DNA from: a phage
Direction: 5' to 3' (one strand)
Sequence record: PZ445498.1
DNA: 64,000 bases
Positions 3,569 to 64,000 of the stretch are shown in pieces. Numbering within the stretch: position 1 is the first letter of the stretch; every line of letters begins with the position of its first letter. The position numbers and the translations under genes are program-made. The notes beneath the pieces were generated by a model, which was not told where the DNA came from, did no database searches, and was given only the letters and a program-made list of their open reading frames with translations.

Positions 3569-4201
3569 ATGACAAATGCTGCTATTGACTATAACAAGTT
3601 AAAATCAGCACCGGTTCATTTAGACGCTTACATTAAGTCTATTGATAGCGAATCCAAAGAGGGTGTTATAAAAATCCGTGGATTCGCTAATACAATTAGT
3701 AAAGATCGCGCTGGTGACGTAATTCCTGCTTCGGCATGGAAAACGTCTAATGCACTTGCTAACTACATGAAAAACCCGATTATTCTTTTCGGCCACGACC
3801 ATCGTCGTCCAATCGGCAAGTGTATTGATCTTAACCCTACTGAAATGGGTCTCGAAATTGAATGCGAGATTTATGAAAGTTCTGATCCAGCTATCTTCTC
3901 ACTAATTAAAAACGGTGTACTGAAAACCTTCAGTATCGGATTCCGCTGCCTAGACGCAGAATGGGATGAAGCTACTGACATATTTATTATTAAAGATTTA
4001 GAACTATACGAAGTTTCGGTAGTCTCTGTACCTTGTAATCAGGACTCAACGTTCAACCTCGCTAAGAGTATGAATGGTCACGATTACACTGAATGGCGCA
4101 AATCTTTTACTGCAACAAGTTCTAAGGCTGTCCCAGCTCAAGAACGTAATCTTTCTGAACTAGAAAAACTTGCGATAGCTTTAGGCTACGTTAAAGAATA
4201 A
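3569..4201 (+). CDS. prohead protease (HK97-family, pb11-like)
   Basis: 210 aa; motif ILFGHDHRRPIGK resembles the HK97-type prohead protease catalytic region; directly upstream of major capsid gene. Confidence 0.7.
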   Translation: MTNAAIDYNKLKSAPVHLDAYIKSIDSESKEGVIKIRGFANTISKDRAGDVIPASAWKTSNALANYMKNPIILFGHDHRRPIGKCIDLNPTEMGLEIECEIYESSDPAIFSLIKNGVLKTFSIGFRCLDAEWDEATDIFIIKDLELYEVSVVSVPCNQDSTFNLAKSMNGHDYTEWRKSFTATSSKAVPAQERNLSELEKLAIALGYVKE

Positions 4202-4218
4202 CGGAGAATTATTTAAAA

Positions 4219-5595
4219 ATGACTATTGATATTAATAAGCTGAAGGAAGAACTTGGTCTGGGTGATCTGGCTAAATCTCTGGAAGGTCTGACTGCTGCTC
4301 AGAAAGCTGCGGAAGCTAAGCGTCTGCGTGAAGAGCAGGAAGAAAAAGAACTGGCTCGTATGAACGATCTAGTATCTAAAGCTGTTGGTGAAGACCGTAA
4401 GCGTCTGGAAGAAGCTCTGGATCTGGTTAAGAACCTGGATGAGAAGTCTAAGAAGAGCGCAGAACTGTTTGCACAGACTGTAGAAAAGCAACAGGAAACC
4501 ATCGTTGGTCTTCAGGACGAAATTAAGTCTCTGTTGGCAGCTCGTGAAGGTCGTTCCTTCGTTGGTGATAGCGTAGCTAAAGCTCTTTATGGCACTCAGG
4601 ATGCTTTCGAAGATGAAGTTGAGAAACTGGTTCTTCTGTCTTATATGATGGAGAAGGACGTATTCGAAACTGAACATGGTAAGGCTCACGTTAAAGCTGT
4701 TAACGGTTCTTCTTCCGTTTCCATGTCTAGCGAAGCATACGAAACTATCTTCTCTACCCGTATTATCCGTGACCTGCAGAAGGAACTGGTAGTTGGTGCA
4801 CTGTTCGATGAACTGCCAATGTCCAGCAAAATCCTTACTATGCTCGTTGAACCAGAAGCTGGTCGTGCTACTTGGGTAGATGCTTCCAAATTCGGTACTG
4901 ACGAAACTGTTGGTGACGAAGTTAAAGGTCAACTGACTGAAATCAGCTTCAAAACTTACAAGCTGGCTGCTAAGTCCTTCATCACTGATGAAACTGAAGA
5001 AGATGCAATCTTCTCCCTGCTGCCTCTGCTGCGTAAGCGTCTGATCGAAGCACACGCTGTTTCTATCGAAGAAGCTTTCATGTCTGGTAATGGTACTGGT
5101 CAGCCTAAGGGTCTGCTGAAACTGGCTGCTGATGATGGTGCTAAGGTTGTTACCGAAGCTAAAGCTGACGGTTCTGTTCTGGTAACTGCTAAGACTATCT
5201 CCAAGCTGCGTCGTAAACTGGGCCGTCATGGTCTGAAACTGAGCAAACTGGTACTGATCGTATCTATGGATGCTTACTACGATCTGCTGGAAGATGAAGA
5301 ATGGCAGGATGTTGCCCAGGTTGGTAACGATGCTGTTAAACTGCAGGGTCAGGTTGGTCGTATTTACGGTCTGCCGGTTGTAGTTTCTGAGTACTTCCCA
5401 GCTAAAGCTGCTTCTGCAGAATTCGCAGTTATTGTTTATAAAGATAACTTCGTAATGCCGCGTCAGCGTGCTGTTACTGTTGAACGTGAGCGCCAAGCTG
5501 GCAAACAGCGTGACGCATACTACGTTACTCAGCGTGTTAACCTGCAACGTTACTTCGAAAACGGCGTTGTATCTGGTGCTTACGCTGCATCTTAA
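4219..5595 (+). CDS. major capsid protein precursor (pb8-like, N-terminal scaffolding/delta domain)
   Basis: 458 aa; coiled-coil-rich N-terminal roughly 150 aa followed by HK97-fold-like body; strongly biased optimal codons; followed by an intrinsic terminator. Confidence 0.85.
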   Translation: MTIDINKLKEELGLGDLAKSLEGLTAAQKAAEAKRLREEQEEKELARMNDLVSKAVGEDRKRLEEALDLVKNLDEKSKKSAELFAQTVEKQQETIVGLQDEIKSLLAAREGRSFVGDSVAKALYGTQDAFEDEVEKLVLLSYMMEKDVFETEHGKAHVKAVNGSSSVSMSSEAYETIFSTRIIRDLQKELVVGALFDELPMSSKILTMLVEPEAGRATWVDASKFGTDETVGDEVKGQLTEISFKTYKLAAKSFITDETEEDAIFSLLPLLRKRLIEAHAVSIEEAFMSGNGTGQPKGLLKLAADDGAKVVTEAKADGSVLVTAKTISKLRRKLGRHGLKLSKLVLIVSMDAYYDLLEDEEWQDVAQVGNDAVKLQGQVGRIYGLPVVVSEYFPAKAASAEFAVIVYKDNFVMPRQRAVTVERERQAGKQRDAYYVTQRVNLQRYFENGVVSGAYAAS

Positions 5596-5612
5596 TACAG
5601 GCTTTTCAGCCG

Positions 5613-5643
5613 ATAAGGAGAGCTTCGGCTCTCCTTTTTTATT
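5613..5643 (+). terminator. intrinsic terminator after major capsid gene
   Basis: GGAGAGC-TTCG-GCTCTCC hairpin (UUCG tetraloop) followed by a T-run. Confidence 0.8.
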
Positions 5644-5654
5644 GGGAAAAATAA

Positions 5655-6167
5655 ATGCAAATCATCACTGTTGAAGATTATAAACTATATGGGAATTTAA
5701 AACGTCCTGATATGGAAACTCAGGTTGAGATGATGATTAAAGCTGCCAATACGCTGATTACAAGCCTTCTAGGTATGGATGATGCAGATGCGGTAGATCA
5801 ATTAATCACCACAAAACCTAGCCGTAGGAAATATTTCCTGAGTTCTCCTTCAGCCACATCTATTACAAAGATGACTATTAACGAGAATGAAATAGATACG
5901 GAACAGTTTAAACTGTATCCTGATGGTGTTATCCTCCTTAAGTTTAATCCTCCTGAAGGATATATGGATGTAGAGTATACTCAAGGTGGTTTCAATCCAA
6001 TGCCTGAAGATCTTAAACTGGCAGCATGTCTGTTAGTAGATCACTGGCATAAGCAAGATTATCGTCAAGCCAAGACTATTGGTGGTGAGACAGTTACGTT
6101 TAACAATACTAAGTCTGGTATTCCAGAACATATTCGTACAATCATCGAAGTCTATAGGAGAGTGTAA
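5655..6167 (+). CDS. head completion / head-tail connector protein
   Basis: 170-aa ORF directly after capsid gene; position in module; no diagnostic motif seen. Confidence 0.45.
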   Translation: MQIITVEDYKLYGNLKRPDMETQVEMMIKAANTLITSLLGMDDADAVDQLITTKPSRRKYFLSSPSATSITKMTINENEIDTEQFKLYPDGVILLKFNPPEGYMDVEYTQGGFNPMPEDLKLAACLLVDHWHKQDYRQAKTIGGETVTFNNTKSGIPEHIRTIIEVYRRV

Positions 6168-6934
6168 TGGCTCTTTCTGATCTAGCTAGACAAATTATTA
6201 AAGAGCAGCTAGATACTGCAGGACGATCTGAGAATAATAAGAATACTGTTGTATATACAGTTGAGACTGGTTTGAAGGATCCTACAAGAGATGGCACAGT
6301 TGCACAGGTATCTTTCAAATTCTCAAAACCAGTATCACAAGACTTATTAAATGTTAGGACAGCATCTATACTGAAGGCTGTTTCTTCTAACTTAGATCTT
6401 TCTGGTGATTTAGGCGCTCTAGAGAATTTAATTCAAGCAACCGCAGGTAAACGTTCTGCTGTTGGTAAAAAACGTTCTACCGGTAGAGTTCAGGTAAACT
6501 TTGGAGATCCTAGAGATACTGAAGATGGCTATTCAGGTGCAGTAACAGGTGCTTCCGGTCGTTTCGTATCAAATAGTAACATGCGTGCTATTCTTGAGAT
6601 AGTAGCTAAGGAATACTTAATCAAGGATATGAAAAAAGCAGGGGCACCATTGAAGTTCAGAACTGGTCGCTTTGCTAACTCCTTAAAGATTAAAGATGTT
6701 ATGTTACGTGATGCAGAAACTAGTAAAGGTGCTCCAGAGCTGAATGTGACGTATAACTATATGGTTCGTCCTTACTCTGTGTTCAACCCCGCAGTTTCTA
6801 CATATCGAAGACTTTCTCTACGACCTTACCCTGGCGCTCGAAACCCTCAAAAACTTATTGGGGAAGCAATCGCAAAAGCTGCAAGAGACCTGATTCACTC
6901 TAGATATAAAATCAAGGTTAATCAAGGAACCTAA
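6167..6934 (+). CDS. neck / head-tail joining protein (hypothetical)
   Basis: 255-aa ORF, start overlaps the upstream stop; position in structural module. Confidence 0.4.
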   Translation: MALSDLARQIIKEQLDTAGRSENNKNTVVYTVETGLKDPTRDGTVAQVSFKFSKPVSQDLLNVRTASILKAVSSNLDLSGDLGALENLIQATAGKRSAVGKKRSTGRVQVNFGDPRDTEDGYSGAVTGASGRFVSNSNMRAILEIVAKEYLIKDMKKAGAPLKFRTGRFANSLKIKDVMLRDAETSKGAPELNVTYNYMVRPYSVFNPAVSTYRRLSLRPYPGARNPQKLIGEAIAKAARDLIHSRYKIKVNQGT

Positions 6935-41467: not shown

Positions 41468-44240
41468 TTCTAGCTCCCAATTCAGCAAGAGCTTCCTCAT
41501 GCATCTGACGTTCTTCATCTGTCATAAACTTAACTGGAATCGGCATACATTCGATCTTACAGTAAGTTCTGTACCAGTCCACAATCTTTTCCGTATCCAG
41601 ATCTTTACCGATACCCATCATGCCAAGATACATACGGGCATATTTTGGGTTAGCGCTCTGACCTGTCTTAAGGAAGAAATCCTTCTTCTTATTCTTAAGA
41701 GCTTCGATAAACGGTTTGATTGTTACATTTGAACACTTCTTGATATCTTCCCAAAACATGTCGTGCATCTTATGGAAGAATGCAGCTCTATCGTTTGGTT
41801 TATCCTTGATATACTGTTCAACGTGTTCCACTGTTACATCTTTAATAGAATCCAGATGATAATAGCGAACCAGAAGTAACTTGGCTTCATAGGCATCTGC
41901 ATGACGTGGTGCGCAATATTCAGGAGTTGAGTACAAAATAGCTTTGATTCGCTCTTCTGTATACTCTTTGCCTGCACCTTCGATAGTTCCCCAGCTTTCA
42001 CTGAAAATATCAATAGTTGCACCCTGATCAAGTAGATAATAACGCAAAGTACTAGTATAGTTTCTAGATTCCAGCTCACGACGACGTGCGTACAGTTGTT
42101 GGGCTAACTCAATCCAACCTTCGTCAATATTATACTGCTCGGAACCGGCAGAAAATCCACTCGTAGATTTATCAATAAAATAATAAATGTTCTGAGCACC
42201 ACGGTCGCGCCTGATTGCTTGAAAACGCATGTTTGGCGCTTGGTTTGAGGTTCTAGTGATTACGAATACGTTATCAAAATAGTTAAAGTCAACACCACTC
42301 GTTACAGATGGACTACATAATAAACAATCAATCTGTTGATCAATTAGCTCATTAGTTGTATAATCCAGAATACGTCGGATATCTACATCAGACGTAGAGT
42401 TTGAGTGAATTTCTTTAACTAACGCACCAGTATTACGACGTAATGCCATTCCCTTCTCATTCAGTTCATCCGGGCCACAGTCAGATACTAGGATTGATTT
42501 CTCCCCCATCTCTAAAGATGTTTGAAGTGCAACCCAAATACTGGATTCATCAGGGAATTCATAAGCATGAGCTTTCGCCAGCATTTTACGGTGGTGATTA
42601 TAAAATGCGACTGGTTTATCAAAATCAATCAAAGAACCATAGGCTTCAATCGTTTCTGCACTGATATCACCATCGGATAAGATAACAGTTTTAGCAGTAA
42701 TAAGGATATCACGAAGAACCTGAATACATTCACGACGGTTTTTAACAACCGGAGCGAATAACAGATCATTCATTACTGCGTCACATTCATCAATAAAGAT
42801 CGTATCAATCTGACCCACAAAGCTCTTGAACTTATGGATAGAGTGAATAGTTGAAGACATACGATCAATGGCACCACGTTTGAAGTTCAGCATATCAACT
42901 GACTTATCATACTGACCAGCACCGAATTTCTTCGCGTTAGAAGATACAAGTGCCCTAGTATTTGTGATTGCAATAAAGTTTCCTGGAAGAACACCTGCAT
43001 CTAGCCACTTAGTTACTGCGGTAGTTTTACCCGTACCAAGACTTGCCTTAACAAATGTTAAATGTCCTTTTGGTGGTACAATGTTAATTTTCAGGTATGG
43101 AACTTCTGGTGGAGAATCTGTGTCTAGACGTTTTAATGGTACACCTTTTAAGTTTGGTGGAATCTCACGTTTGGAGTTATTTACAAAGGCTTTGAGAGCC
43201 TGCTTACGACCGTTATTAAAGTAATCTTGAATATTACGACTATTATCTTTAGTCGTAATATACTCAGATAAAGCTGGTTTAATCTCACGTTCTAACCACG
43301 TAAAGTCAACACCATCTTCTAACGCTCTGTGATAAAGTTTTGGGATAATACGCAGGTACACTCCATCCTCAGCTTCTTCTAGTTCGCTGATGGTTTCTTC
43401 CACTTTATCAGATGCAGCCTTCTTGCCTTTAATTTGATCAAGTAAGGAGTAGAACTCTTCTTTAAACTCACCTCTAGTTGTCTCAAAGTCAACTAGGTTA
43501 TTAGGTAGATTCACCTTCGAACCCTTAACATACACAAGGCGTGGTTTATTCTCCGCTTTAAACGGATCGACTATACCATCATCAAATAAGGGATCTGCGA
43601 AATAGTGAAGCTGAACAGAAGAATAATAAGCTAAGTCAGCAATATCAAAGCCATACTTTTGCTTACTACTGTCATTGATAGATGTAAATAAGAACTTTAA
43701 CTGTCCCTGCGTTACCTTGACATTAGATTCTAGCATTAAGTGCATTCGGATACCTGGTTTTAATCCAGCCGAAGACGATGCATGGGCAATAAACCCTGCA
43801 TCAAGAGGAAACATATCCTCACTAATACTATTCAACATCTTAATAATATGACGTGCCATGCCAACAAGATTAAACTTGTCATAGCCACCAGTATCTACAA
43901 TACCATCCACGTCCATAGCAATAATATGACTAGGATTGGATACGTTAAAGTTTCCCCTGGTACGACGCACATTATCTTTTGGAGCTAAACATTTACCACG
44001 AATAGCTACAATATGCGGGTCTTTGGTAAGACGACGCATGATAGGTAACATTTCAGCAAGGTTTTGCGGGTCAAGTTCTTCAAGTACATCAAATTTGAAG
44101 GGCATGGAAGCTGGTTTACCTTCTGGATGCTCTTTAGAGAATCGCTTTGCAAAGGTGTAATCTTCCACTTTGATCTCTTTCCAGATGCCAGTGGCTTTAT
44201 CTCTGGAAAATCCTGCGTGACCTTGTAGGATTGAGAACAC
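41451..44240 (-). CDS. replication origin-binding-like protein / P-loop NTPase
   Basis: Walker A LGTGKTT and Walker B IFIDECD; start placed at GTG 44240 with AGGAG Shine-Dalgarno rather than the upstream ATG at 44363. Confidence 0.55.
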   Translation of the reverse strand: MFSILQGHAGFSRDKATGIWKEIKVEDYTFAKRFSKEHPEGKPASMPFKFDVLEELDPQNLAEMLPIMRRLTKDPHIVAIRGKCLAPKDNVRRTRGNFNVSNPSHIIAMDVDGIVDTGGYDKFNLVGMARHIIKMLNSISEDMFPLDAGFIAHASSSAGLKPGIRMHLMLESNVKVTQGQLKFLFTSINDSSKQKYGFDIADLAYYSSVQLHYFADPLFDDGIVDPFKAENKPRLVYVKGSKVNLPNNLVDFETTRGEFKEEFYSLLDQIKGKKAASDKVEETISELEEAEDGVYLRIIPKLYHRALEDGVDFTWLEREIKPALSEYITTKDNSRNIQDYFNNGRKQALKAFVNNSKREIPPNLKGVPLKRLDTDSPPEVPYLKINIVPPKGHLTFVKASLGTGKTTAVTKWLDAGVLPGNFIAITNTRALVSSNAKKFGAGQYDKSVDMLNFKRGAIDRMSSTIHSIHKFKSFVGQIDTIFIDECDAVMNDLLFAPVVKNRRECIQVLRDILITAKTVILSDGDISAETIEAYGSLIDFDKPVAFYNHHRKMLAKAHAYEFPDESSIWVALQTSLEMGEKSILVSDCGPDELNEKGMALRRNTGALVKEIHSNSTSDVDIRRILDYTTNELIDQQIDCLLCSPSVTSGVDFNYFDNVFVITRTSNQAPNMRFQAIRRDRGAQNIYYFIDKSTSGFSAGSEQYNIDEGWIELAQQLYARRRELESRNYTSTLRYYLLDQGATIDIFSESWGTIEGAGKEYTEERIKAILYSTPEYCAPRHADAYEAKLLLVRYYHLDSIKDVTVEHVEQYIKDKPNDRAAFFHKMHDMFWEDIKKCSNVTIKPFIEALKNKKKDFFLKTGQSANPKYARMYLGMMGIGKDLDTEKIVDWYRTYCKIECMPIPVKFMTDEERQMHEEALAELGARNDSEE

Positions 44241-44736
44241 AACAATACTCCTATGTTGGTTATTCGGATATCTTTCTTTAGGACTATTCAAAAGAATAGA
44301 ACAACTATTACTACCATTTACACAAACATTAATCATCATCAAGCAGTATGAATAAGTTATCATACCTCAGTGCTGCGCTCTCTTAACTCTTATCCAGATC
44401 AGAACCTAGGTCATTGGCCGCTAAGCCGATTCTGATTGCCCTCACTATCCTATTGGTAGGTGGCTACTGGACGTGTCACCATTCGCTGCTCTTTTCGTTC
44501 GCACCCCCATATAAAGCTCTGCCTATATAACGAGCTAAATATGCACGGTTTGGATTTACCTTTCCGAATTCAGGGTACGCAGATCACTTAATTGATAATT
44601 AACTAATGCAGTATAAACACTAGTAATAGTTAAAACAACCCTTAATGGGGCAGCCTAACTGTTCCGTATTGCGGATTGTAAACAAGAAAAATTAGCAAAA
44701 TCAATTTTTACTAATGTCTCTCAATTCAATATAAAT

Positions 44737-44765
44737 ATTATATCAAGATTTTGAGCATCCTGCAA
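44737..44765 (-). promoter_or_regulatory. early promoter about 490 nt upstream of the origin-binding-like gene
   Basis: Reverse complement TTGCAG-N17-TATAAT followed by ATTTATATTGAATTGAGAGA leader. Confidence 0.55.
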
Positions 44766-44856
44766 GTAAAATTTTTCCGAAGGTGCTATCAGTGTCTTTG
44801 AGCACAGAGAAAACCGAGCCAAAATGACTCGGTAATCAGGATTGGGCTAACGAAAA

Positions 44857-49993: not shown

Positions 49994-50020
49994 TATACCC
50001 TCCTTCTCTAACTAAGACTA

Positions 50021-50049
50021 CTATTATAACTCATTAGAAGGCGGATGTC
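50021..50049 (-). promoter_or_regulatory. consensus sigma70 promoter for nrdD
   Basis: Reverse complement TTGACA-N17-TATAAT; AGGAGG Shine-Dalgarno before the ATG. Confidence 0.7.
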
Positions 50050-50102
50050 AACAATATTTTACTATAAAGTTCTGTAACATGATCTGAGTCAAAAAATTTT
50101 AT

Positions 50103-50131
50103 TTGCCAACCTCTATTAAAAATAGTATAAT
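50103..50131 (+). promoter_or_regulatory. sigma70-type promoter (distal, divergent from nrdD)
   Basis: TTGCCA-N17-TATAAT. Confidence 0.5.
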
Positions 50132-50242
50132 CACGCGCCCGTGTACGCGATATAAAATGATTATCTAGTACCATACATCTCCCAATAAAAGCAAGCAAAT
50201 TTTTTATTTAAATGCAATATCATAGGCTTATTTAAAATTGTA

Positions 50243-50271
50243 GTTGCTTTCTCCCGTATATATTGGTATAA
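50243..50271 (+). promoter_or_regulatory. early promoter upstream of phoH
   Basis: TTGCTT-N17-TATAAT. Confidence 0.6.
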
Positions 50272-50345
50272 TATATTTGTAAGTTGATAAACAAGATCTT
50301 TTTGTTGATCCTCTGTTAGCGAAGTACACTATAGGAGTGTTATTT

Positions 50346-61251: not shown

Positions 61252-61893
61252 ATGATGACTACTCGTATCTCTAAAACTCGTGCTCTGGCAACTATCAAGT
61301 CTCTGGAATCTAAAATCCGTAAAGCTACTGAACAACAGCTTTTGATTGCTGTTGGTGAAGGTAAAGACAAGAATCAAGTTGTCGTTGGTGCTGCAATCGA
61401 AGTAGATGCTCTGTCTACTCGTATTAAAACTGATTTCCAGTCTCTGCTGGATATGATGACCCAGCGTGATCAGCTGAAAGCAGCGCTGATCAAGAGCAAT
61501 GCTGAAACTGTTGTAGAGATCGGTTCCCGCTCTATGACTGTTGCGGAAGCAATCGAAGCTAAGCGTTCTATGGAACTCAAAGCTCAGTTGCTGGCTAACA
61601 TGCGTAAGCAGTTCCATGCTGCTACTGTTAAGTTTAACACTCAGAAGGCTCAGTTTGATGCCAAGTATGAGCGTTTGCAGGATACCATGGCTACCCGCGA
61701 CAAGAAGACTTCCGAGGATGAAGTTAAGATGCAGCTTAACCTGCTGGAACTCAAGAACACTCCATTCCTGATCGATCCGCTGGAGCTGGAAAAGCTGATC
61801 AAGCAACACGACGAAGAATACCAGGACTTTGCAACCAACGTTGACTTTGTTCTGTCTGAGTCCAACGCCTCTACTTTTATCGAAGTAGAGTAA
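61252..61893 (+). CDS. hypothetical protein (highly expressed)
   Basis: Start at ATG 61252 after AAGGAAG; optimal codon usage. Confidence 0.45.
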   Translation: MMTTRISKTRALATIKSLESKIRKATEQQLLIAVGEGKDKNQVVVGAAIEVDALSTRIKTDFQSLLDMMTQRDQLKAALIKSNAETVVEIGSRSMTVAEAIEAKRSMELKAQLLANMRKQFHAATVKFNTQKAQFDAKYERLQDTMATRDKKTSEDEVKMQLNLLELKNTPFLIDPLELEKLIKQHDEEYQDFATNVDFVLSESNASTFIEVE

Positions 61894-62273
61894 TAATTTA
61901 AAAGACTAGTAAATCGGTAGACGAAAGCCCAAGCATCTTACCTCGCAGCAGCGGTTGAAATACGAGGTTAAATAAGACCGCTGACCATACTATAAAGTAT
62001 AATCTATTGGAGATTATGTTTATTACACCAGCCTCTTAAGCTGAACTGTAAAAACGGTCGTTGGTAGTACCAACACAACTTCAAAGATCAACGCTCAAGT
62101 ATGAAAGCTGAAAAGTTAAAAGCACTCAAACTTCTAACCTTCTAAAGCTAAAAGATGCAAAGTATTCGTTGATGATTCAAACCCTAGATCAAAGGTACAT
62201 GGCTCATAAGATATGGCCTGTGGCGCCTCTAGGCTGTTTATCGGTTTACTAGTCTCTCAATTTAAAAATGTAT

Positions 62274-62302
62274 TTGCTAATTAGTTTAGTTTTCTATATA
62301 AT
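62274..62302 (+). promoter_or_regulatory. early promoter
   Basis: TTGCTA-N17-TATAAT followed by AAATTGATGAGA. Confidence 0.65.
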
Positions 62303-62332
62303 ATATTTTTAAATTGATGAGACGAGGCTATT

Positions 62333-62650
62333 ATGATTTTTCATATTCTAATTGATGATGTTCGTGACCTACATGGGATGGATATTATCATTCGAACCCC
62401 CGAAGCCGCTATTGAGTTTCTGAATACAACCGATACCACCGGACATTTCGTTTATATGGATAACGATCTGGCTGTAGATGGTATGGAAGGTTATCAAATT
62501 CTTCGTTTACTCCTAAAATTTGGTCAGAGACCCAAGAAAGTGGTACTAGTAACCTCGAACCCAGTAGCTAAAGAGACCATGCGTAATGATCTCTTAGACG
62601 AAGGGTATCAAGAAAGCCCTAATCGTATTGAGTACGATTGGCCGGAGTAA
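62333..62650 (+). CDS. CheY-like receiver-domain-like protein (stand-alone)
   Basis: 105 aa; ILIDDV (acidic pocket), VYMDNDLAVDGMEGYQIL (phospho-acceptor-like D followed by GM.G), VVLVTS (conserved Thr/Ser position). Confidence 0.4.
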   Translation: MIFHILIDDVRDLHGMDIIIRTPEAAIEFLNTTDTTGHFVYMDNDLAVDGMEGYQILRLLLKFGQRPKKVVLVTSNPVAKETMRNDLLDEGYQESPNRIEYDWPE

Positions 62651-62655
62651 ATAAA

Positions 62656-63105
62656 ATGAAGGCAGCTTTGCTTTTAATAGCTGCCCTAACCTATAGCTTC
62701 AATAGTCATGCGACCTACGACTCAAAGCAGATTGATTGCATTGCAAAAAATATCTACTTCGAAGCACGAGGTGAGGGCACTAAAGGAATGATCGCAGTTG
62801 CACAGGTTACTAAAAACCGTGTTAACTCTGGTACTTTTCCTGATTCTTACTGTAAAGTAGTATATCAGTCTAACCAGTTCTCTTGGGTGGCCAAGAGACC
62901 AAAAGTTGATAAAACCGATGAGGCTTGGCAAGTTGCTAAGAATTTAGCTAGAGTGATATACTACGTTGATTTACCACAAGATCCAACACATGGAGCGTTA
63001 TACTTCCATAGTGGTAAAGATAAACCGTACTGGACAAAGAAGTTTAAGAAAACAACGAAGATTCAAGGCCATACGTTTTACAAGCCTGTGGTTAAGAAAA
63101 CTTAA
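62656..63105 (+). CDS. SleB-like cell wall hydrolase with N-terminal signal peptide
   Basis: Start at ATG 62656 (MKAALLLIAALTYSFNSHA signal-like); Hydrolase_2 pattern NIYFEARGE...AVAQVTKNR...GALYFHS. Confidence 0.6.
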   Translation: MKAALLLIAALTYSFNSHATYDSKQIDCIAKNIYFEARGEGTKGMIAVAQVTKNRVNSGTFPDSYCKVVYQSNQFSWVAKRPKVDKTDEAWQVAKNLARVIYYVDLPQDPTHGALYFHSGKDKPYWTKKFKKTTKIQGHTFYKPVVKKT

Positions 63106-63154: not shown

Positions 63155-63346
63155 TTGATGAGAGGAAAGCGAACAATGAAAACCTTAGTAATTATTGGTG
63201 TTAACACTCACGGTATTCGTACTACGAAAACAGTTAAAACTACTAACGTTGCTGAAATTACTACAAATCCTAAGAAGTTTGATTTCGCCAAAGTCTCAGC
63301 AGTTATGACAGAACAATCTTTTAACCAAGCACTGGGAATTAAATAA
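63155..63346 (+). CDS. hypothetical protein
   Basis: 63-aa ORF. Confidence 0.4.
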   Translation: MMRGKRTMKTLVIIGVNTHGIRTTKTVKTTNVAEITTNPKKFDFAKVSAVMTEQSFNQALGIK

Positions 63347-63789
63347 TGGAAGAGAATATTCTAGATGTTTTGCGTAGGGCTTTGCAGGAATCCAAGTTTA
63401 ATGGTTCTGATAAAGAAGTAGCTAAAAGCTACCAGACCATAATCGGAGATCTTCAGCGTGTTGATAAAGACTTCATTACTTCTGAACAGTTTGTATCTTA
63501 TCTAAAAGCTCAACTGAAAAGCATTAATCAGACGAAAGCTAAACTTCACGGTCAAGACCTTGATAATTATAGCTTGCAGTCTGCTCAGTATGAATATATA
63601 CTGAACAAATGGTTACAGCAGTATCTGCCGCCTCAGTTATCTGATTCTGAGATTCGCAAATACTTTGCAGAATTAGTTAAGTTGAATCCTGGGATTACAA
63701 AAGGTATGCTGATGAAAGCGATTAAGGAAGAGTTTCCTGGTCGTTACGACGGTGGCATTGCTGCTCAGGTTGCTGGCGAATTTAATTAA
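63346..63789 (+). CDS. GatB/YqeY-domain-like protein
   Basis: 147 aa; C-terminal GITKGMLMKAIKEEFPGRYDGGIAAQVAGEF resembles the YqeY-family C-terminal motif. Confidence 0.45.
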   Translation: MEENILDVLRRALQESKFNGSDKEVAKSYQTIIGDLQRVDKDFITSEQFVSYLKAQLKSINQTKAKLHGQDLDNYSLQSAQYEYILNKWLQQYLPPQLSDSEIRKYFAELVKLNPGITKGMLMKAIKEEFPGRYDGGIAAQVAGEFN

Positions 63790-63797
63790 AAATTGAT

Positions 63798-63826
63798 TTG
63801 CTAAACGCCTCAAAATTCTGTATAAT
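63798..63826 (+). promoter_or_regulatory. early promoter followed by at least 170 nt with no ORF
   Basis: TTGCTA-N17-TATAAT followed by AGATTCATAAATTAGAGAACAG; no start codon with Shine-Dalgarno before the window end. Confidence 0.6.
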
Positions 63827-64000
63827 AGATTCATAAATTAGAGAACAGCGAGCCGATTACGCTGAGTGAGTTTAGTGATTCCTACTAGGATAGCTATTCC
63901 ACTGAATAGAGTCGGTGAGTTTAGAATGATCACCTGTTAGAGTTCCGAGTCCAGTCCGGTATATCCGGCCAAGTGACTAGAGTAACGAATATAGGTTCGA

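What the first reader, a model, noticed from the sequence alone, without database searches (positions are those of the whole stretch)
61894..62273. 380-bp region with no ORF between two early genes
No ORF of 60 aa or more lies on either strand, and I could not fold any convincing tRNA cloverleaf (no GTTCGAATC-type T-arm). The region contains a stem GCGGT...ACCGC and a tiny ORF (ATG TTT ATT ACA CCA GCC TCT TAA at 62016) preceded by TATAAT and GGAG. It may encode a small RNA, a leader peptide, or a degraded tRNA remnant.
Basis: seen in the sequence. Interest (0 to 1): 0.4.

Follow-up and report, generated by a model that had tools for sequence, protein, structure and literature searches.

The report
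Unannotated structured RNA with partner protein
The "empty" gap in this T5-like phage encodes a roughly 353-nt folded RNA that always sits just after one uncharacterised protein gene, and the same pair occurs in hundreds of unrelated large phages and in spore-forming bacteria, with no matching family or annotation in any library, record or paper checked here.

Summary
Window 61894-62332 has no ORF of 30 aa or more, no tRNA and no Rfam match. It is the unannotated T5.085|T5.084 intergenic region of T5-like phages.

It is not empty. Positions 61903-62255 (+ strand) encode a structured RNA with these parts:
- a 21-bp closing helix P1 with a near-invariant (36/37) G·U base pair;
- variable hairpins;
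- a single-stranded A-rich tract of about 7-nt "YYAAAG" repeats;
- a conserved 3' domain.

The RNA is 94% identical between this phage and T5, while neighbouring third-codon positions are 64-73% identical. P1 and the 3' helix covary strongly across more than 40 distant relatives.

The RNA lies directly downstream of a T5.085-family gene (PHROG 1491, misnamed "tail fiber") wherever it was detected. The loci include rV5-like, jumbo, Pseudomonas, Lactococcus and Clostridioides phages and Bacillota chromosomes. No Rfam, Pfam, NCBIfam or PADLOC family matches either partner.

The tiny ORF and the tRNA-remnant ideas are not supported.

Most likely this is a dedicated RNA-protein module, with the repeat tract serving as a periodic protein-binding platform. 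Its function is unknown, and it appears to be a new RNA class.

The parts
61255..61893 (+). T5.085-family gene (212 aa; PHROG 1491, annotated 'tail fiber protein' in many records). It is the only partner gene found consistently next to the RNA.
61903..62255 (+). The whole structured RNA, from the first to the last base of the closing helix P1 (353 nt).
   Evidence: MFE z-score is -4.5 on the + strand. The region is 94.1% identical to T5, against 64-73% at third-codon positions of the flanking genes. RNAalifold recovers P1, pseudoknot stem 1 and the 3' domain without guidance. G·U pairs outnumber A·C by 101:19 in P1 and 22:3 in the 3' helix, which points to the + strand.
61903..61923 (+). P1 5' arm, AGACUAGUAAAUCGGUAGACG. 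Its last G forms the near-invariant (36/37) G·U pair with U62235.
   Evidence: There are 21 consecutive pairs with 62235-62255. Across 37 diverse members, 86.7% of cells are paired against 54.7% in shuffles, with 178 double changes against 61 (0/500 shuffles reach this). The closing G·U is present in 36 of 37.
61924..61939 (+). 5' junction strand AAAGCCCAAGCAUCUU. Together with G61923 it forms the conserved 'CG|AAA' junction motif.
   Evidence: The junction reads CGAAA / CGAAC / CGAGU in nearly all members.
61940..61983 (+). H-type pseudoknot. Stem 1 is ACCUCG (61940-45) / CGAGGU (61963-68). Stem 2 is CAGCGGU (61949-55) / ACCGCUG (61977-83). Loop 3 is A-rich (UAAAUAAG).
   Evidence: The same topology with unrelated stem sequences appears in 25 or more members. 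Of 36 real segments, 26 score above the 95th percentile of shuffles. Stem 1 is recovered by RNAalifold.
61987..62074 (+). Variable middle region with local hairpins: AUAAUCU-AUUGG-AGAUUAU (61999-62017), CAGC-CUCUUAA-GCUG (62029-62043) and GUUGGU-AGU-ACCAAC (62060-62074).
   Evidence: Most window-versus-T5 differences fall here (62028-62072). They include the compensatory change CAGC/GCUG to CAGA/UCUG. The region varies in length and content across the family. L040 holds a true tRNA-Thr here, and L063, L064 and L074 have T-arm-like hairpins. No tRNA is detectable in the window copy.
62079..62168 (+). Single-stranded A-rich tract of about 7-8-nt repeats (CAAAG, UCAAG, GAAAG, AAAAG, AAAAG, UAAAG, AAAAG, CAAAG).
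   Evidence: AAG occurs 8 times here and 5.9 times per 110 nt on average across the family, against 2.6 expected. Spacings between successive AAG peak at 7 (51 cases), 8 (25), 6 (16), 14-15 (33) and 21 (7). The tract is left unpaired by RNAalifold. nhmmer homology to distant loci centres on this tract.
62174..62237 (+). Conserved 3' domain: AAACC, then helix CCUAGA (62183-88) / UCUAGG (62228-33) enclosing an inner hairpin (62197-62221), then GGCUG.
   Evidence: Covariance model R1 scores 60 bits here (E 1e-15), and this is its only hit in the 64-kb window. The helix is 94.4% paired across 40 distinct sequences, with 72 double changes against 18.6 in shuffles (0/500).
62235..62255 (+). P1 3' arm, UGUUUAUCGGUUUACUAGUCU.
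   Evidence: In phage bastian, an HNH endonuclease gene is inserted immediately after this arm and leaves it intact.
62274..62302 (+). Right-hand boundary, not part of the RNA: the T5-type early promoter of the T5.084 homologue (TTGCTA-17-TATAAT).
   Evidence: It is the best sigma-70 match in the region (10/12). It is annotated as a promoter in AKFV33 and T5. Related copies occur elsewhere in the window.

Best explanation
Window 61903-62255 (+ strand) encodes a stable, highly structured non-coding RNA of about 353 nt. It belongs to a large RNA class for which I found no description.

The RNA forms a two-part module with the gene immediately upstream, a T5.085-family protein. In T5-like phages it is transcribed by read-through from the early promoter upstream of T5.086/T5.085, as the 3' part of that mRNA. 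It is then presumably trimmed to the P1-closed core. In many other phages a tRNA starts 0-16 nt after P1, so RNase P would create the 3' end there.

The fold has these elements:
- a long closing helix ending in a near-invariant (36/37) G·U pair next to the CG|AAA / GGC|UG junction;
- an H-type pseudoknot with an A-rich loop 3;
- a variable hairpin region that can even host a tRNA;
- an unpaired tract of 8-13 heptad 'YYAAAG' repeats;
- a conserved 3' hairpin domain.

My proposed mechanism is that the RNA and the T5.085-family protein assemble into a ribonucleoprotein. The heptad tract would act as a periodic binding platform, one repeat per protein subunit, as in TRAP or Cas7/Vipr-type assemblies. 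The structured domains would act as a nucleating or positioning scaffold.

What is shown: the RNA-level structure, the strand, purifying selection, and obligate linkage to the protein gene. What is inferred: processing, direct RNA-protein binding, and the role of the repeats. The cellular or antiviral function remains unknown. The T5.085 protein is dispensable for T5 growth on laboratory E. coli, which suggests an accessory role.
For: Selection:
- The gap is at least 90% identical in about 440 T5-like records, whereas the surrounding 2.2 kb is only 80-90% identical in 229 of them.
- Against T5, the RNA is 94.1% identical and flanking third-codon positions are 64-73% identical.

Structure:
- MFE z-score is -4.5.
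- P1 covaries massively.
- The 3' helix covaries with 0/500 shuffles reaching the observed value.
- The pseudoknot recurs with unrelated stem sequences.
- RNAalifold recovers P1, stem 1 and the 3' domain unaided.

Strand:
- Every hit is co-oriented with the protein gene.
- G·U pairs greatly outnumber A·C.

Linkage to the protein:
- Model R1 hits once per locus, 200-400 nt after the stop codon, in 48 of 55 sources: the window, T5-like records and 51 IMG/VR loci.
- It also hits in My1 despite local gene rearrangement.
- It hits in Lactococcus phiL47, Clostridioides LIBA2945, Erwinia Mortimer, Pseudomonas phiPsa397 and Aeromonas LAh_6.
- It hits in 61 of 80 bacterial loci.
- No other neighbouring gene is conserved.
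- In Solibacillus the gene plus RNA form a stand-alone unit, followed by a convergent gene in an ordinary chromosomal context.

Repeats: heptad periodicity of AAG, and the tract is unpaired.

3' ends: a tRNA begins 0-16 nt after P1 in 6 of 21 loci examined.

Not matching anything known: no Rfam hit in the window or in 20 diverse loci, and no annotation in the seven annotated relatives opened, including both T5 records, with no RNA feature among the features listed under the gap match.

Dispensability: T5.085 is scored 'Not Fit' in the CRISPRi-ART screen (PMC11879866 supplement).
Against: - No expression data were available, so the existence, ends and stability of a discrete RNA are inferred.
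- Direct protein-RNA binding is untested. The protein model has no recognisable RNA-binding fold, and its only structural relative (3kdq) has unknown function.
- All loci were collected through the protein, so RNA copies without the gene could not be looked for.
- P1 arms and pseudoknots were located by maximising pairing next to sequence anchors. That inflates the percentage paired, although the shuffle, slide and cross-locus controls remain far lower.
- Seven of the 55 sources and 19 of the 80 bacterial loci gave no R1 hit at E<=1.
- The heptad motif degenerates to UUCAA(U/A) in some AT-rich members.
Confidence: 0.6

Rival explanations
1. The element is a cis-acting 3'-UTR structure of the T5.085 mRNA. 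It would act as a stabiliser, an exonuclease barrier, a processing signal, or a feedback site for the protein's own expression. It would not be a trans-acting RNA or RNP with a separate function.
For: P1 starts only 9 nt after the stop codon in the window and 5-45 nt after it elsewhere. No promoter-like site lies between the gene and the RNA. The RNA is always co-oriented with the gene and immediately downstream of it. In Solibacillus the unit is gene plus RNA, followed by a convergent gene.
Against: A 250-400-nt architecture seems far more elaborate than known 3' stabilisers. It has a pseudoknot, a near-invariant (36/37) G·U junction, a periodic single-stranded tract and a conserved 3' domain. 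In the T5 group the RNA is conserved more strongly than the protein-coding sequence itself. In several phages a tRNA abuts P1, which implies release of the RNA as a separate molecule.
Confidence: 0.2
2. The RNA is a decoy or sponge for a host factor rather than for its neighbouring protein. The repeated single-stranded A-G-N-U-rich heptads would titrate a host RNA-binding protein or RNase. Candidates are RNase E (whose consensus is R-N|W-U-U), Hfq, S1, or a defence nuclease.
For: The tract has many closely spaced, unpaired, similar motifs. This is the layout of the CsrB/RsmZ sponges and pseudo-ToxI (general knowledge). The element is found in large virulent phages, often inside tRNA arrays that are thought to counter host tRNA-targeting defences. 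T5.085 is dispensable in a laboratory host.
Against: The module also sits in ordinary chromosomal contexts of Bacillota with no phage genes nearby. It spans Gram-negative and Gram-positive hosts, whose RNases and chaperones differ. The strict linkage to one protein family is then left unexplained. No PADLOC match was found.
Confidence: 0.12
3. The element is a decayed tRNA or tmRNA gene, a remnant of the adjacent tRNA region with no function of its own.
For: The variable region has hairpins resembling D, anticodon and T arms. The loop is CUCUUAA here and CUUUUAA in AKFV33, the latter recalled to match the tRNA-Lys anticodon loop (from memory; not checked here). L040 has a real tRNA-Thr at that place, and L063, L064 and L074 have GGUUCGAAUCC hairpins.
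Against: ARAGORN and Rfam tRNA/tmRNA models find nothing, even at 90% thresholds. The tRNA-like part is the least conserved 90 nt of a 353-nt RNA, and the rest covaries as a different fold. Pseudogenes would not be kept at 94% identity while silent sites fall to about 70%.
Confidence: 0.03
4. The gap encodes a short peptide. Candidates are the 7-aa ORF at 62016-62039 and the 14-aa ORF MKAEKLKALKLLTF at 62102-62146. Conservation would then reflect coding or leader-peptide regulation.
For: Both ORFs exist, and the first is preceded by GGAG. Both keep their length in T5.
Against: All window-versus-T5 differences inside both ORFs change the amino acid, and there are no silent changes. Neither ORF exists in Av-05, L038 or My1, although the RNA does. 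The heptad period breaks any reading frame. No ORF is shared across the family.
Confidence: 0.02
5. The element acts at the DNA level (replication origin, homing-endonuclease target, promoter cluster), or it is a minus-strand small RNA ending at the terminator-like hairpin 62075-62059.
For: The minus strand folds even better in silico (z -6.2). A hairpin plus T-run is seen on the minus strand. An HNH gene is inserted next to the element in some phages.
Against: Wobble pairs are strongly asymmetric in favour of the + strand. The near-invariant (36/37) closing pair is G·U, which would be a C·A mismatch on the other strand. No minus-strand promoter is found in the gap. The A-run that creates the minus-strand 'terminator' is specific to T5-like phages. 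The HNH insertion lies outside the element and leaves it intact.
Confidence: 0.03

Closest known systems
OLE RNA with its Oap partner proteins (Bacillota)
   Same: A large, ornate, covariation-supported RNA of unknown biochemical function. It is encoded directly next to a dedicated partner-protein gene and found in Bacillota (general knowledge; PMC3413148 listed).
   Different: There is no sequence or structure match, since Rfam OLE is not hit. The partner here is a soluble helical protein of about 210 aa encoded upstream. The RNA is half the size and contains a heptad-repeat tract. The module is also widespread in virulent phages.
VIPR systems: Vipr (RAMP) protein plus vrRNA (bioRxiv 10.64898/2026.04.26.720920)
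   Same: Both are mostly phage-encoded minimal modules of one protein gene with an adjacent non-coding RNA. In both, a tract of short tandem periodic repeats is joined to a conserved structured part that includes a pseudoknot. In VIPR the protein reads the repeats periodically.
   Different: vrRNAs are about 100 nt with 9-16 YNNGG pentamers whose NN positions are hypervariable. Here the repeats are heptads with a YYAAAG consensus. They are nearly invariant between T5 and this phage and are embedded in a 250-400-nt RNA closed by P1. The partner protein model is alpha-helical with no RRM/RAMP-like hit.
GOLLD and ROOL RNAs
   Same: Large structured RNAs of unknown function that are common in phages and prophages and often lie beside tRNA genes. 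GOLLD can carry a nested tRNA (general knowledge; PMC12286853, PMC5737381). Here, L040 has a tRNA-Thr nested in the variable region.
   Different: Rfam models for GOLLD and ROOL do not match. Those RNAs are 500-800 nt and have no obligate neighbouring protein gene and no heptad tract.
TRAP-binding (G/U)AG repeat leaders and CsrB/RsmZ sponge RNAs
   Same: A run of similar short motifs at regular spacing in an accessible RNA serves as a multivalent platform for an oligomeric protein (general knowledge). This is the model proposed for the heptad tract.
   Different: The motif (AAAG), the spacing (7 nt) and the context differ. Those RNAs lack the P1, pseudoknot and 3' domain scaffold. TRAP and CsrA are unrelated to the T5.085 family.
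Y RNA / Rsr (Ro) modules of bacteria and phages
   Same: An RNA closed by a long 5'/3' helix, with a tRNA-like or variable module, encoded next to its protein partner and also present in phages (general knowledge).
   Different: No Rfam Y RNA or YrlA match was found. The partner is not a TROVE-domain protein. The size and domains differ.
T5 stable RNAs of unknown function (RNAI, III, IV, 1, 2, 2H, 3, X)
   Same: Non-tRNA stable RNAs are annotated in the T5 tRNA region, on the same transcription strand, with function unknown.
   Different: None is annotated at this locus (T5 43142-43504). R1 finds no second copy in the T5 tRNA region. Most are smaller (73-172 nt; RNAX is 719 nt), and several are described as tRNA-like.

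Membership tests
tRNA | A cloverleaf detectable by ARAGORN or by the Rfam RF00005 model. | tested here: not met
   There are 0 genes in the window and no RF00005 hit. Nothing is found at 90% thresholds, and only spurious opposite-strand calls appear at 70-80%.
tmRNA | A tRNA-like domain formed by the 5' and 3' ends with a T-arm and CCA, plus a tag reading frame. | tested here: not met
   ARAGORN tmRNA search is negative and no Rfam tmRNA hit is found. P1 is a 21-bp helix without a T-arm or CCA.
Any Rfam 15 family (including GOLLD, ROOL, OLE, Y RNA, RNase P, 6S, raiA, skipping-rope) | A score at or above the family's gathering threshold. | tested here: not met
   The window gives 0 hits at gathering thresholds, and only 2 chance miRNA hits at E<=10 that lie over the promoter hairpin. 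In 20 diverse loci the only hits are tRNAs and one skipping-rope RNA outside the element.
VIPR vrRNA | Alternating GGY/NN pentamer repeats (9-16 copies). | tested here: not met
   The repeats here are AAG-centred heptads with spacing peaks at 7, 14 and 21 nt.
VIPR vrRNA | An adjacent Vipr protein with the RAMP (RRM, G-loop, thumb) fold. | tested here: not met
Type III toxin-antitoxin RNA (ToxI-like) | Tandem repeats of about 34-45 nt next to a ToxN-like endoribonuclease gene. | tested here: not met
   The repeat unit is about 7 nt. The neighbouring protein has no Pfam or PADLOC match and an all-helical model.
New class proposed here: T5.085-associated RNA | A closing helix P1 ending in a G·U pair within the CG|AAA ... 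GGC|UG junction. | tested here: met
   In the window the arms are 61903-61923 and 62235-62255, with G61923·U62235.
New class proposed here: T5.085-associated RNA | An H-type pseudoknot 15-20 nt after the junction. | tested here: met
   It lies at window 61940-61983.
New class proposed here: T5.085-associated RNA | An unpaired A-rich tract with heptad periodicity upstream of the 3' domain. | tested here: met
   It lies at window 62079-62168 and has 8 AAG. RNAalifold leaves it unpaired.
New class proposed here: T5.085-associated RNA | A conserved 3' domain (AAAUCC, helix, GGCUG) matched by covariance model R1. | tested here: met
   R1 scores 60 bits (E 1e-15) at 62174-62237, the only hit in the window. 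The window sequence was one of the 14 seed sequences.
New class proposed here: T5.085-associated RNA | Location immediately downstream of a T5.085-family gene and co-oriented with it. | tested here: met
   The gene ends at 61893 and P1 starts at 61903. The same arrangement holds in all hits.
New class proposed here: T5.085-associated RNA | The RNA accumulates as a discrete transcript and binds the T5.085-family protein. | not testable with these tools
   No transcriptome or binding data were available. This feature is inferred only.

The most novel reading that the evidence does not exclude
The gap reveals an ancient, very widespread ribonucleoprotein. The protein family has at least 3,385 clusters at 50% identity and is found in T5-like, rV5-like, jumbo, Pseudomonas, Vibrio, Bacillus, Lactococcus and Clostridioides phages and in chromosomes of spore-forming Bacillota. 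In this reading, an oligomer of a helical protein reads a heptad-periodic single-stranded RNA tract that is held by a pseudoknotted scaffold. That would be a new kind of periodic RNA-protein assembly, distinct from TRAP, Csr, Cas7 and VIPR, with a function in RNA or translation control or in phage-host conflict that nobody has yet studied, even in the model phage T5.
Probability: 0.35. Interest if true: 0.9.

Novelty: categorically new. Interest (0 to 1): 0.8.

Why it matters
T5 is one of the classic model phages, yet this 353-nt element is unannotated in both T5 reference records and the other relatives opened, with no RNA feature listed under the gap match across about 440 relatives. It is under stronger constraint than the genes around it.

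The same RNA-plus-protein pair recurs across phages of Gram-negative and Gram-positive hosts and in Bacillota chromosomes. This implies a general, conserved activity for which neither partner matches a family in the libraries checked.

It offers a directly testable system. There is a genetically tractable phage, a small protein, and an RNA with clear domains and a near-invariant (36/37) G·U pair. It could lead to a new RNP mechanism, and possibly a new way for proteins to read periodic RNA.

It also corrects a widespread mis-annotation ("tail fiber protein") and flags an RNA gene that annotation pipelines miss.

Tried and rejected
1. tRNA/tmRNA: ARAGORN at default and at 90-70% thresholds, and Rfam. 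Rejected.

2. Known RNA families: Rfam on the window, on the 801-nt region at E<=10, and on 20 diverse loci. Nothing was found. The two miRNA 'hits' come from the AU-rich hairpin around the T5.084 promoter.

3. Leader peptide or small ORFs: not conserved, and all changes alter the amino acid.

4. TATAAT at 61998 as a promoter: it has no -35 partner and is not reported by the scan.

5. Minus-strand sRNA with a terminator-like hairpin at 62075-62059: rejected on G·U asymmetry, the absence of a minus-strand promoter, and lack of conservation of the T-run outside T5-like phages.

6. The 'second places' reported by BLAST in many records: these are copies of the T5 early-promoter region, not of the RNA.

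7. Homing-driven homogenisation as the cause of the high identity: the identity boundary coincides with the stop codon, and differences inside the gap are compensatory. The HNH insertion lies outside the RNA.

8. A strict regular expression for the 3' domain was too narrow and was replaced by covariance model R1.

9. The MAFFT alignment of pseudoknot segments was not in structural register. No tool-based pair count was therefore made for the pseudoknot. Evidence for it rests on the parser plus shuffle control and on RNAalifold for stem 1.

10. A search for other conserved neighbouring genes found none beyond sub-clades.

12. Literature searches for T5 non-coding RNAs, this locus, heptad-repeat RNAs and tRNA-array-associated RNAs found no description of this element.

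13. A full-length covariance model was not attempted, because models of this length exceed the calibration limit.
Full report
**Where the window comes from, and the observation**

The window is a T5-like phage (Demerecviridae, Epseptimavirus). It is 98.6% identical to phages Sds2 and PYC03 over 2.2 kb.

The finding covers the intergenic region between the homologues of T5.085 (window 61255-61893) and T5.084 (62333-62650).

- The longest ORFs in 61894-62332 are 22-27 aa.
- ARAGORN finds no tRNA or tmRNA anywhere in the window.
- No Rfam family matches.
- This is the second-longest stretch of the 64-kb window without an ORF of 60 aa or more.
- Neither T5 reference record nor the other five relatives I opened annotates anything here except that promoter. 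The eight 'stable RNAs of unknown function' of T5 lie elsewhere.

**The gap is under selection**

Used alone as a query, the gap is at least 90% identical in about 440 T5-like records. The 2.2 kb around it is only 80-90% identical in 229 of them.

Against T5 itself, 61903-62255 is 94.1% identical. Third-codon positions of the four neighbouring genes are 64-73% identical. The jump in identity occurs at the stop codon.

Most of the differences cluster in 62028-62072 and include a compensatory hairpin change, CAGC...GCUG to CAGA...UCUG.

**It is a structured RNA on the + strand**

The region folds much better than shuffles (z -4.5 on the + strand).

A 21-bp helix, P1, joins 61903-61923 to 62235-62255.

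Using the T5.085 protein as a handle, I fetched 79 IMG/VR loci, 51 of which have only 29-42% protein identity.

- Most of them also have an ORF-poor stretch of 250-750 nt after the gene.
- An nhmmer profile of the T5 group hits that stretch, on the + strand, in nine distant loci.
- Reading the sequences showed a common plan, which I then tested.

Tests of the common plan:

1. P1. Next to the conserved junction (...CG|AAA on the 5' side, GGC|UG... on the 3' side), almost every locus has a 10-23-bp helix of unrelated sequence.
   - On 37 diverse members, 86.7% of cells pair, against 54.7% in shuffles and 29-51% when the partner is slid.
   - There are 178 double changes against 61 in shuffles (0/500 shuffles reach this).
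   - The innermost pair is G·U in 36 of 37.

2. 3' domain. A covariance model of 68 positions (R1) hits exactly once per locus, always on the + strand and 200-400 nt after the stop codon. This holds in 48 of 55 sources. There is only one hit in the window (62174-62237, 60 bits). Its helix is 94.4% paired, with 72 double changes against 18.6 in shuffles (0/500).

3. Pseudoknot. An H-type pseudoknot recurs 15-20 nt after the junction with unrelated stem sequences. Stem 1 has 4-7 bp, stem 2 has 5-10 bp, and loop 3 is short and A-rich. Of 36 real segments, 26 beat the 95th percentile of shuffles.

4. Independent check. RNAalifold on five sequences (window, T5, Av-05, L038, My1) recovers P1, stem 1 and the 3' domain, and leaves the middle unpaired.

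5. Strand. G·U pairs outnumber A·C by 101:19 in P1 and 22:3 in the 3' helix.

**The repeat tract**

Between the last variable hairpin and the 3' domain lies an unpaired A-rich tract (window 62079-62168). AAG occurs 5.9 times per 110 nt against 2.6 expected. Spacings peak at 7, then 14-15 and 21 nt, which indicates a heptad repeat with consensus close to YYAAAG. Some AT-rich members have UUCAA(U/A) instead.

**Linkage to one protein family**

The RNA follows the T5.085-family gene even where the neighbourhood is rearranged.

- In My1, the T5.084 homologue lies upstream of the T5.085 homologue, while the RNA still follows T5.085.
- It does so in Lactococcus phiL47, Clostridioides LIBA2945, the Erwinia jumbo phage Mortimer, Pseudomonas phiPsa397 and Aeromonas LAh_6.
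- tblastn finds the protein in 744 phage records from many genera.
- A scan of one genome per bacterial species found 185 relatives, mostly in spore-forming Bacillota.
- R1 hits the expected place in 61 of 80 of these loci, and P1 is present there too.
- In Solibacillus the gene plus RNA sit in an ordinary chromosomal context, followed by a convergent gene.
- No other neighbouring gene is conserved.

The protein family has at least 3,385 clusters at 50% identity and a uniform length of about 205-215 aa. It has no Pfam, NCBIfam or PADLOC family. Its confident model consists of helical hairpins with a small sheet, and its only clear structural relative is 3kdq, which has unknown function. The 'tail fiber' label comes from PHROG 1491 and from propagated annotation.

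In many phages the gene and RNA sit inside tRNA arrays. In 6 of 21 loci a tRNA starts within 16 nt of the end of P1. In L040 a tRNA-Thr is nested inside the RNA.

**Mechanism**

Shown: an RNA-level fold, the strand, purifying selection, and obligate linkage to the protein gene.

Inferred:
- In T5-like phages the RNA is made by read-through from the promoter upstream of T5.086/T5.085, because no promoter-like site lies between the gene and the RNA. It is then trimmed.
- Where a tRNA abuts P1, RNase P would make the 3' end.
- The RNA and the protein form an RNP, in which the heptad tract is a periodic platform for an oligomer and the junction, pseudoknot and 3' domain form the scaffold.

T5.085 knock-down has no fitness effect on laboratory E. 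coli (PMC11879866 supplement), so the module is probably accessory.

Rival explanations are scored in the rival section of this report: a cis-acting 3'-UTR element, a sponge for a host factor, a tRNA remnant, a peptide, and a DNA-level or antisense element.

**Comparison with known systems**

No Rfam family matches the window or 20 diverse loci.

- By layout, the closest parallels are OLE RNA with its Oap proteins and Y RNA with Rsr, where RNA and partner gene lie side by side.
- By genomic habit, the closest are GOLLD and ROOL, which are phage-borne, lie next to tRNAs and can nest a tRNA.
- By logic, the closest are TRAP or Csr repeat platforms and the recently described VIPR vrRNAs, which combine pentamer repeats with a pseudoknotted tail and a phage-encoded protein.

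The element fails the defining tests of each of these families (see the membership table). Literature searches found no description of it. These searches cover open-access papers only.

**Verdict**

The finding is real and much more interesting than 'a gap'. It is a member of a widespread structured-RNA class for which I found no description, paired with an uncharacterised protein family.

My confidence levels:
- that a functional + strand structured RNA is encoded here: about 0.9;
- that it works as an RNP with the neighbouring protein: about 0.5-0.6;
- that the class is undescribed: about 0.75.

Noticed in passing
window 62249-62326: A 78-nt AU-rich hairpin spans the T5.084 promoter (-25.3 kcal/mol, z -5.9). 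Its 5' arm overlaps the last 7 nt of P1, and its 3' arm ends just before the T5.084 ribosome-binding site. Positions 62254 (C->T) and 62321 (G->A) change together between this phage and T5. The hairpin could form only in read-through transcripts. Possible roles are an RNase III site, the 3'-end determinant of the RNA, or occlusion of T5.084 translation. It also explains the weak MIR1120 and MIR7696 Rfam hits.
   Followed up: partly
L004 (Salmonella phage bastian) 1376-1888; also PMBT22: An HNH homing-endonuclease gene is inserted exactly between the end of the P1 3' arm and the T5.084 promoter. The RNA is left intact.
   Followed up: partly
window 61255-61893: The T5.085-family gene is labelled 'tail fiber protein' in hundreds of phage records. 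The label traces to PHROG 1491 and propagated annotation. The gene lies in the early region, the model is a helical-hairpin protein, and homologues sit in ordinary Bacillota chromosomes. The label is almost certainly wrong.
   Followed up: yes
window 44364-44856, 49994-50336 and 63790-64000: These are the other stretches without an ORF of 60 aa or more (493, 343 and at least 211 nt). The last runs off the window. By position it corresponds to the start of T5 'RNAX', a 719-nt stable RNA of unknown function upstream of tRNA-Arg.
   Followed up: no
L040 3229-3305: A genuine tRNA-Thr(UGU) is nested inside the RNA, between the pseudoknot and the heptad tract. L063, L064 and L074 carry a GGUUCGAAUCC T-arm-like hairpin at the same place. 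The variable region therefore tolerates or recruits tRNA modules, as reported for GOLLD.
   Followed up: partly
L096 (Paenibacillus xylaniclasticus) 2519-2647: A skipping-rope RNA (RF02924, 54 bits) lies about 90 nt downstream of the 3' domain of the new RNA.
   Followed up: no
L095 (Aeromonas phage LAh_6) 1094-1390: A gene annotated as a ProQ-like RNA chaperone lies directly upstream of the T5.085 homologue.
   Followed up: no
L176 (Solibacillus silvestris) 3612-6639, compared with window 62656-63105 and T5.087: The bacterial chromosomal neighbourhood of the module contains a SleB-like Hydrolase_2 gene, an M14 peptidase and small spore-protein genes (YfhD, YpzG). The T5 neighbourhood also has a SleB-like hydrolase (T5.083) and a protein annotated as an M14-type metallopeptidase (T5.087). 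This may be coincidence or may hint at a cell-wall or spore connection.
   Followed up: no
window 62333-62650: The downstream gene (T5.084 homologue) carries a cREC_REC 'cyclic-phosphate processing receiver' domain (PF20274, E 6e-15). Further downstream is a weak YqeY-like match (PF09424, 24.9 bits, below Pfam's 27-bit cut-off; T5.081 homologue, 63346-63789). In T5-like phages the locus is therefore surrounded by genes with RNA-related domain matches.
   Followed up: partly
L137 (Parabacteroides MAG) 2331-2397 and 2693-2755: There are two hits of the 3'-domain model in tandem after one T5.085-family gene. This may be a duplicated RNA.
   Followed up: no
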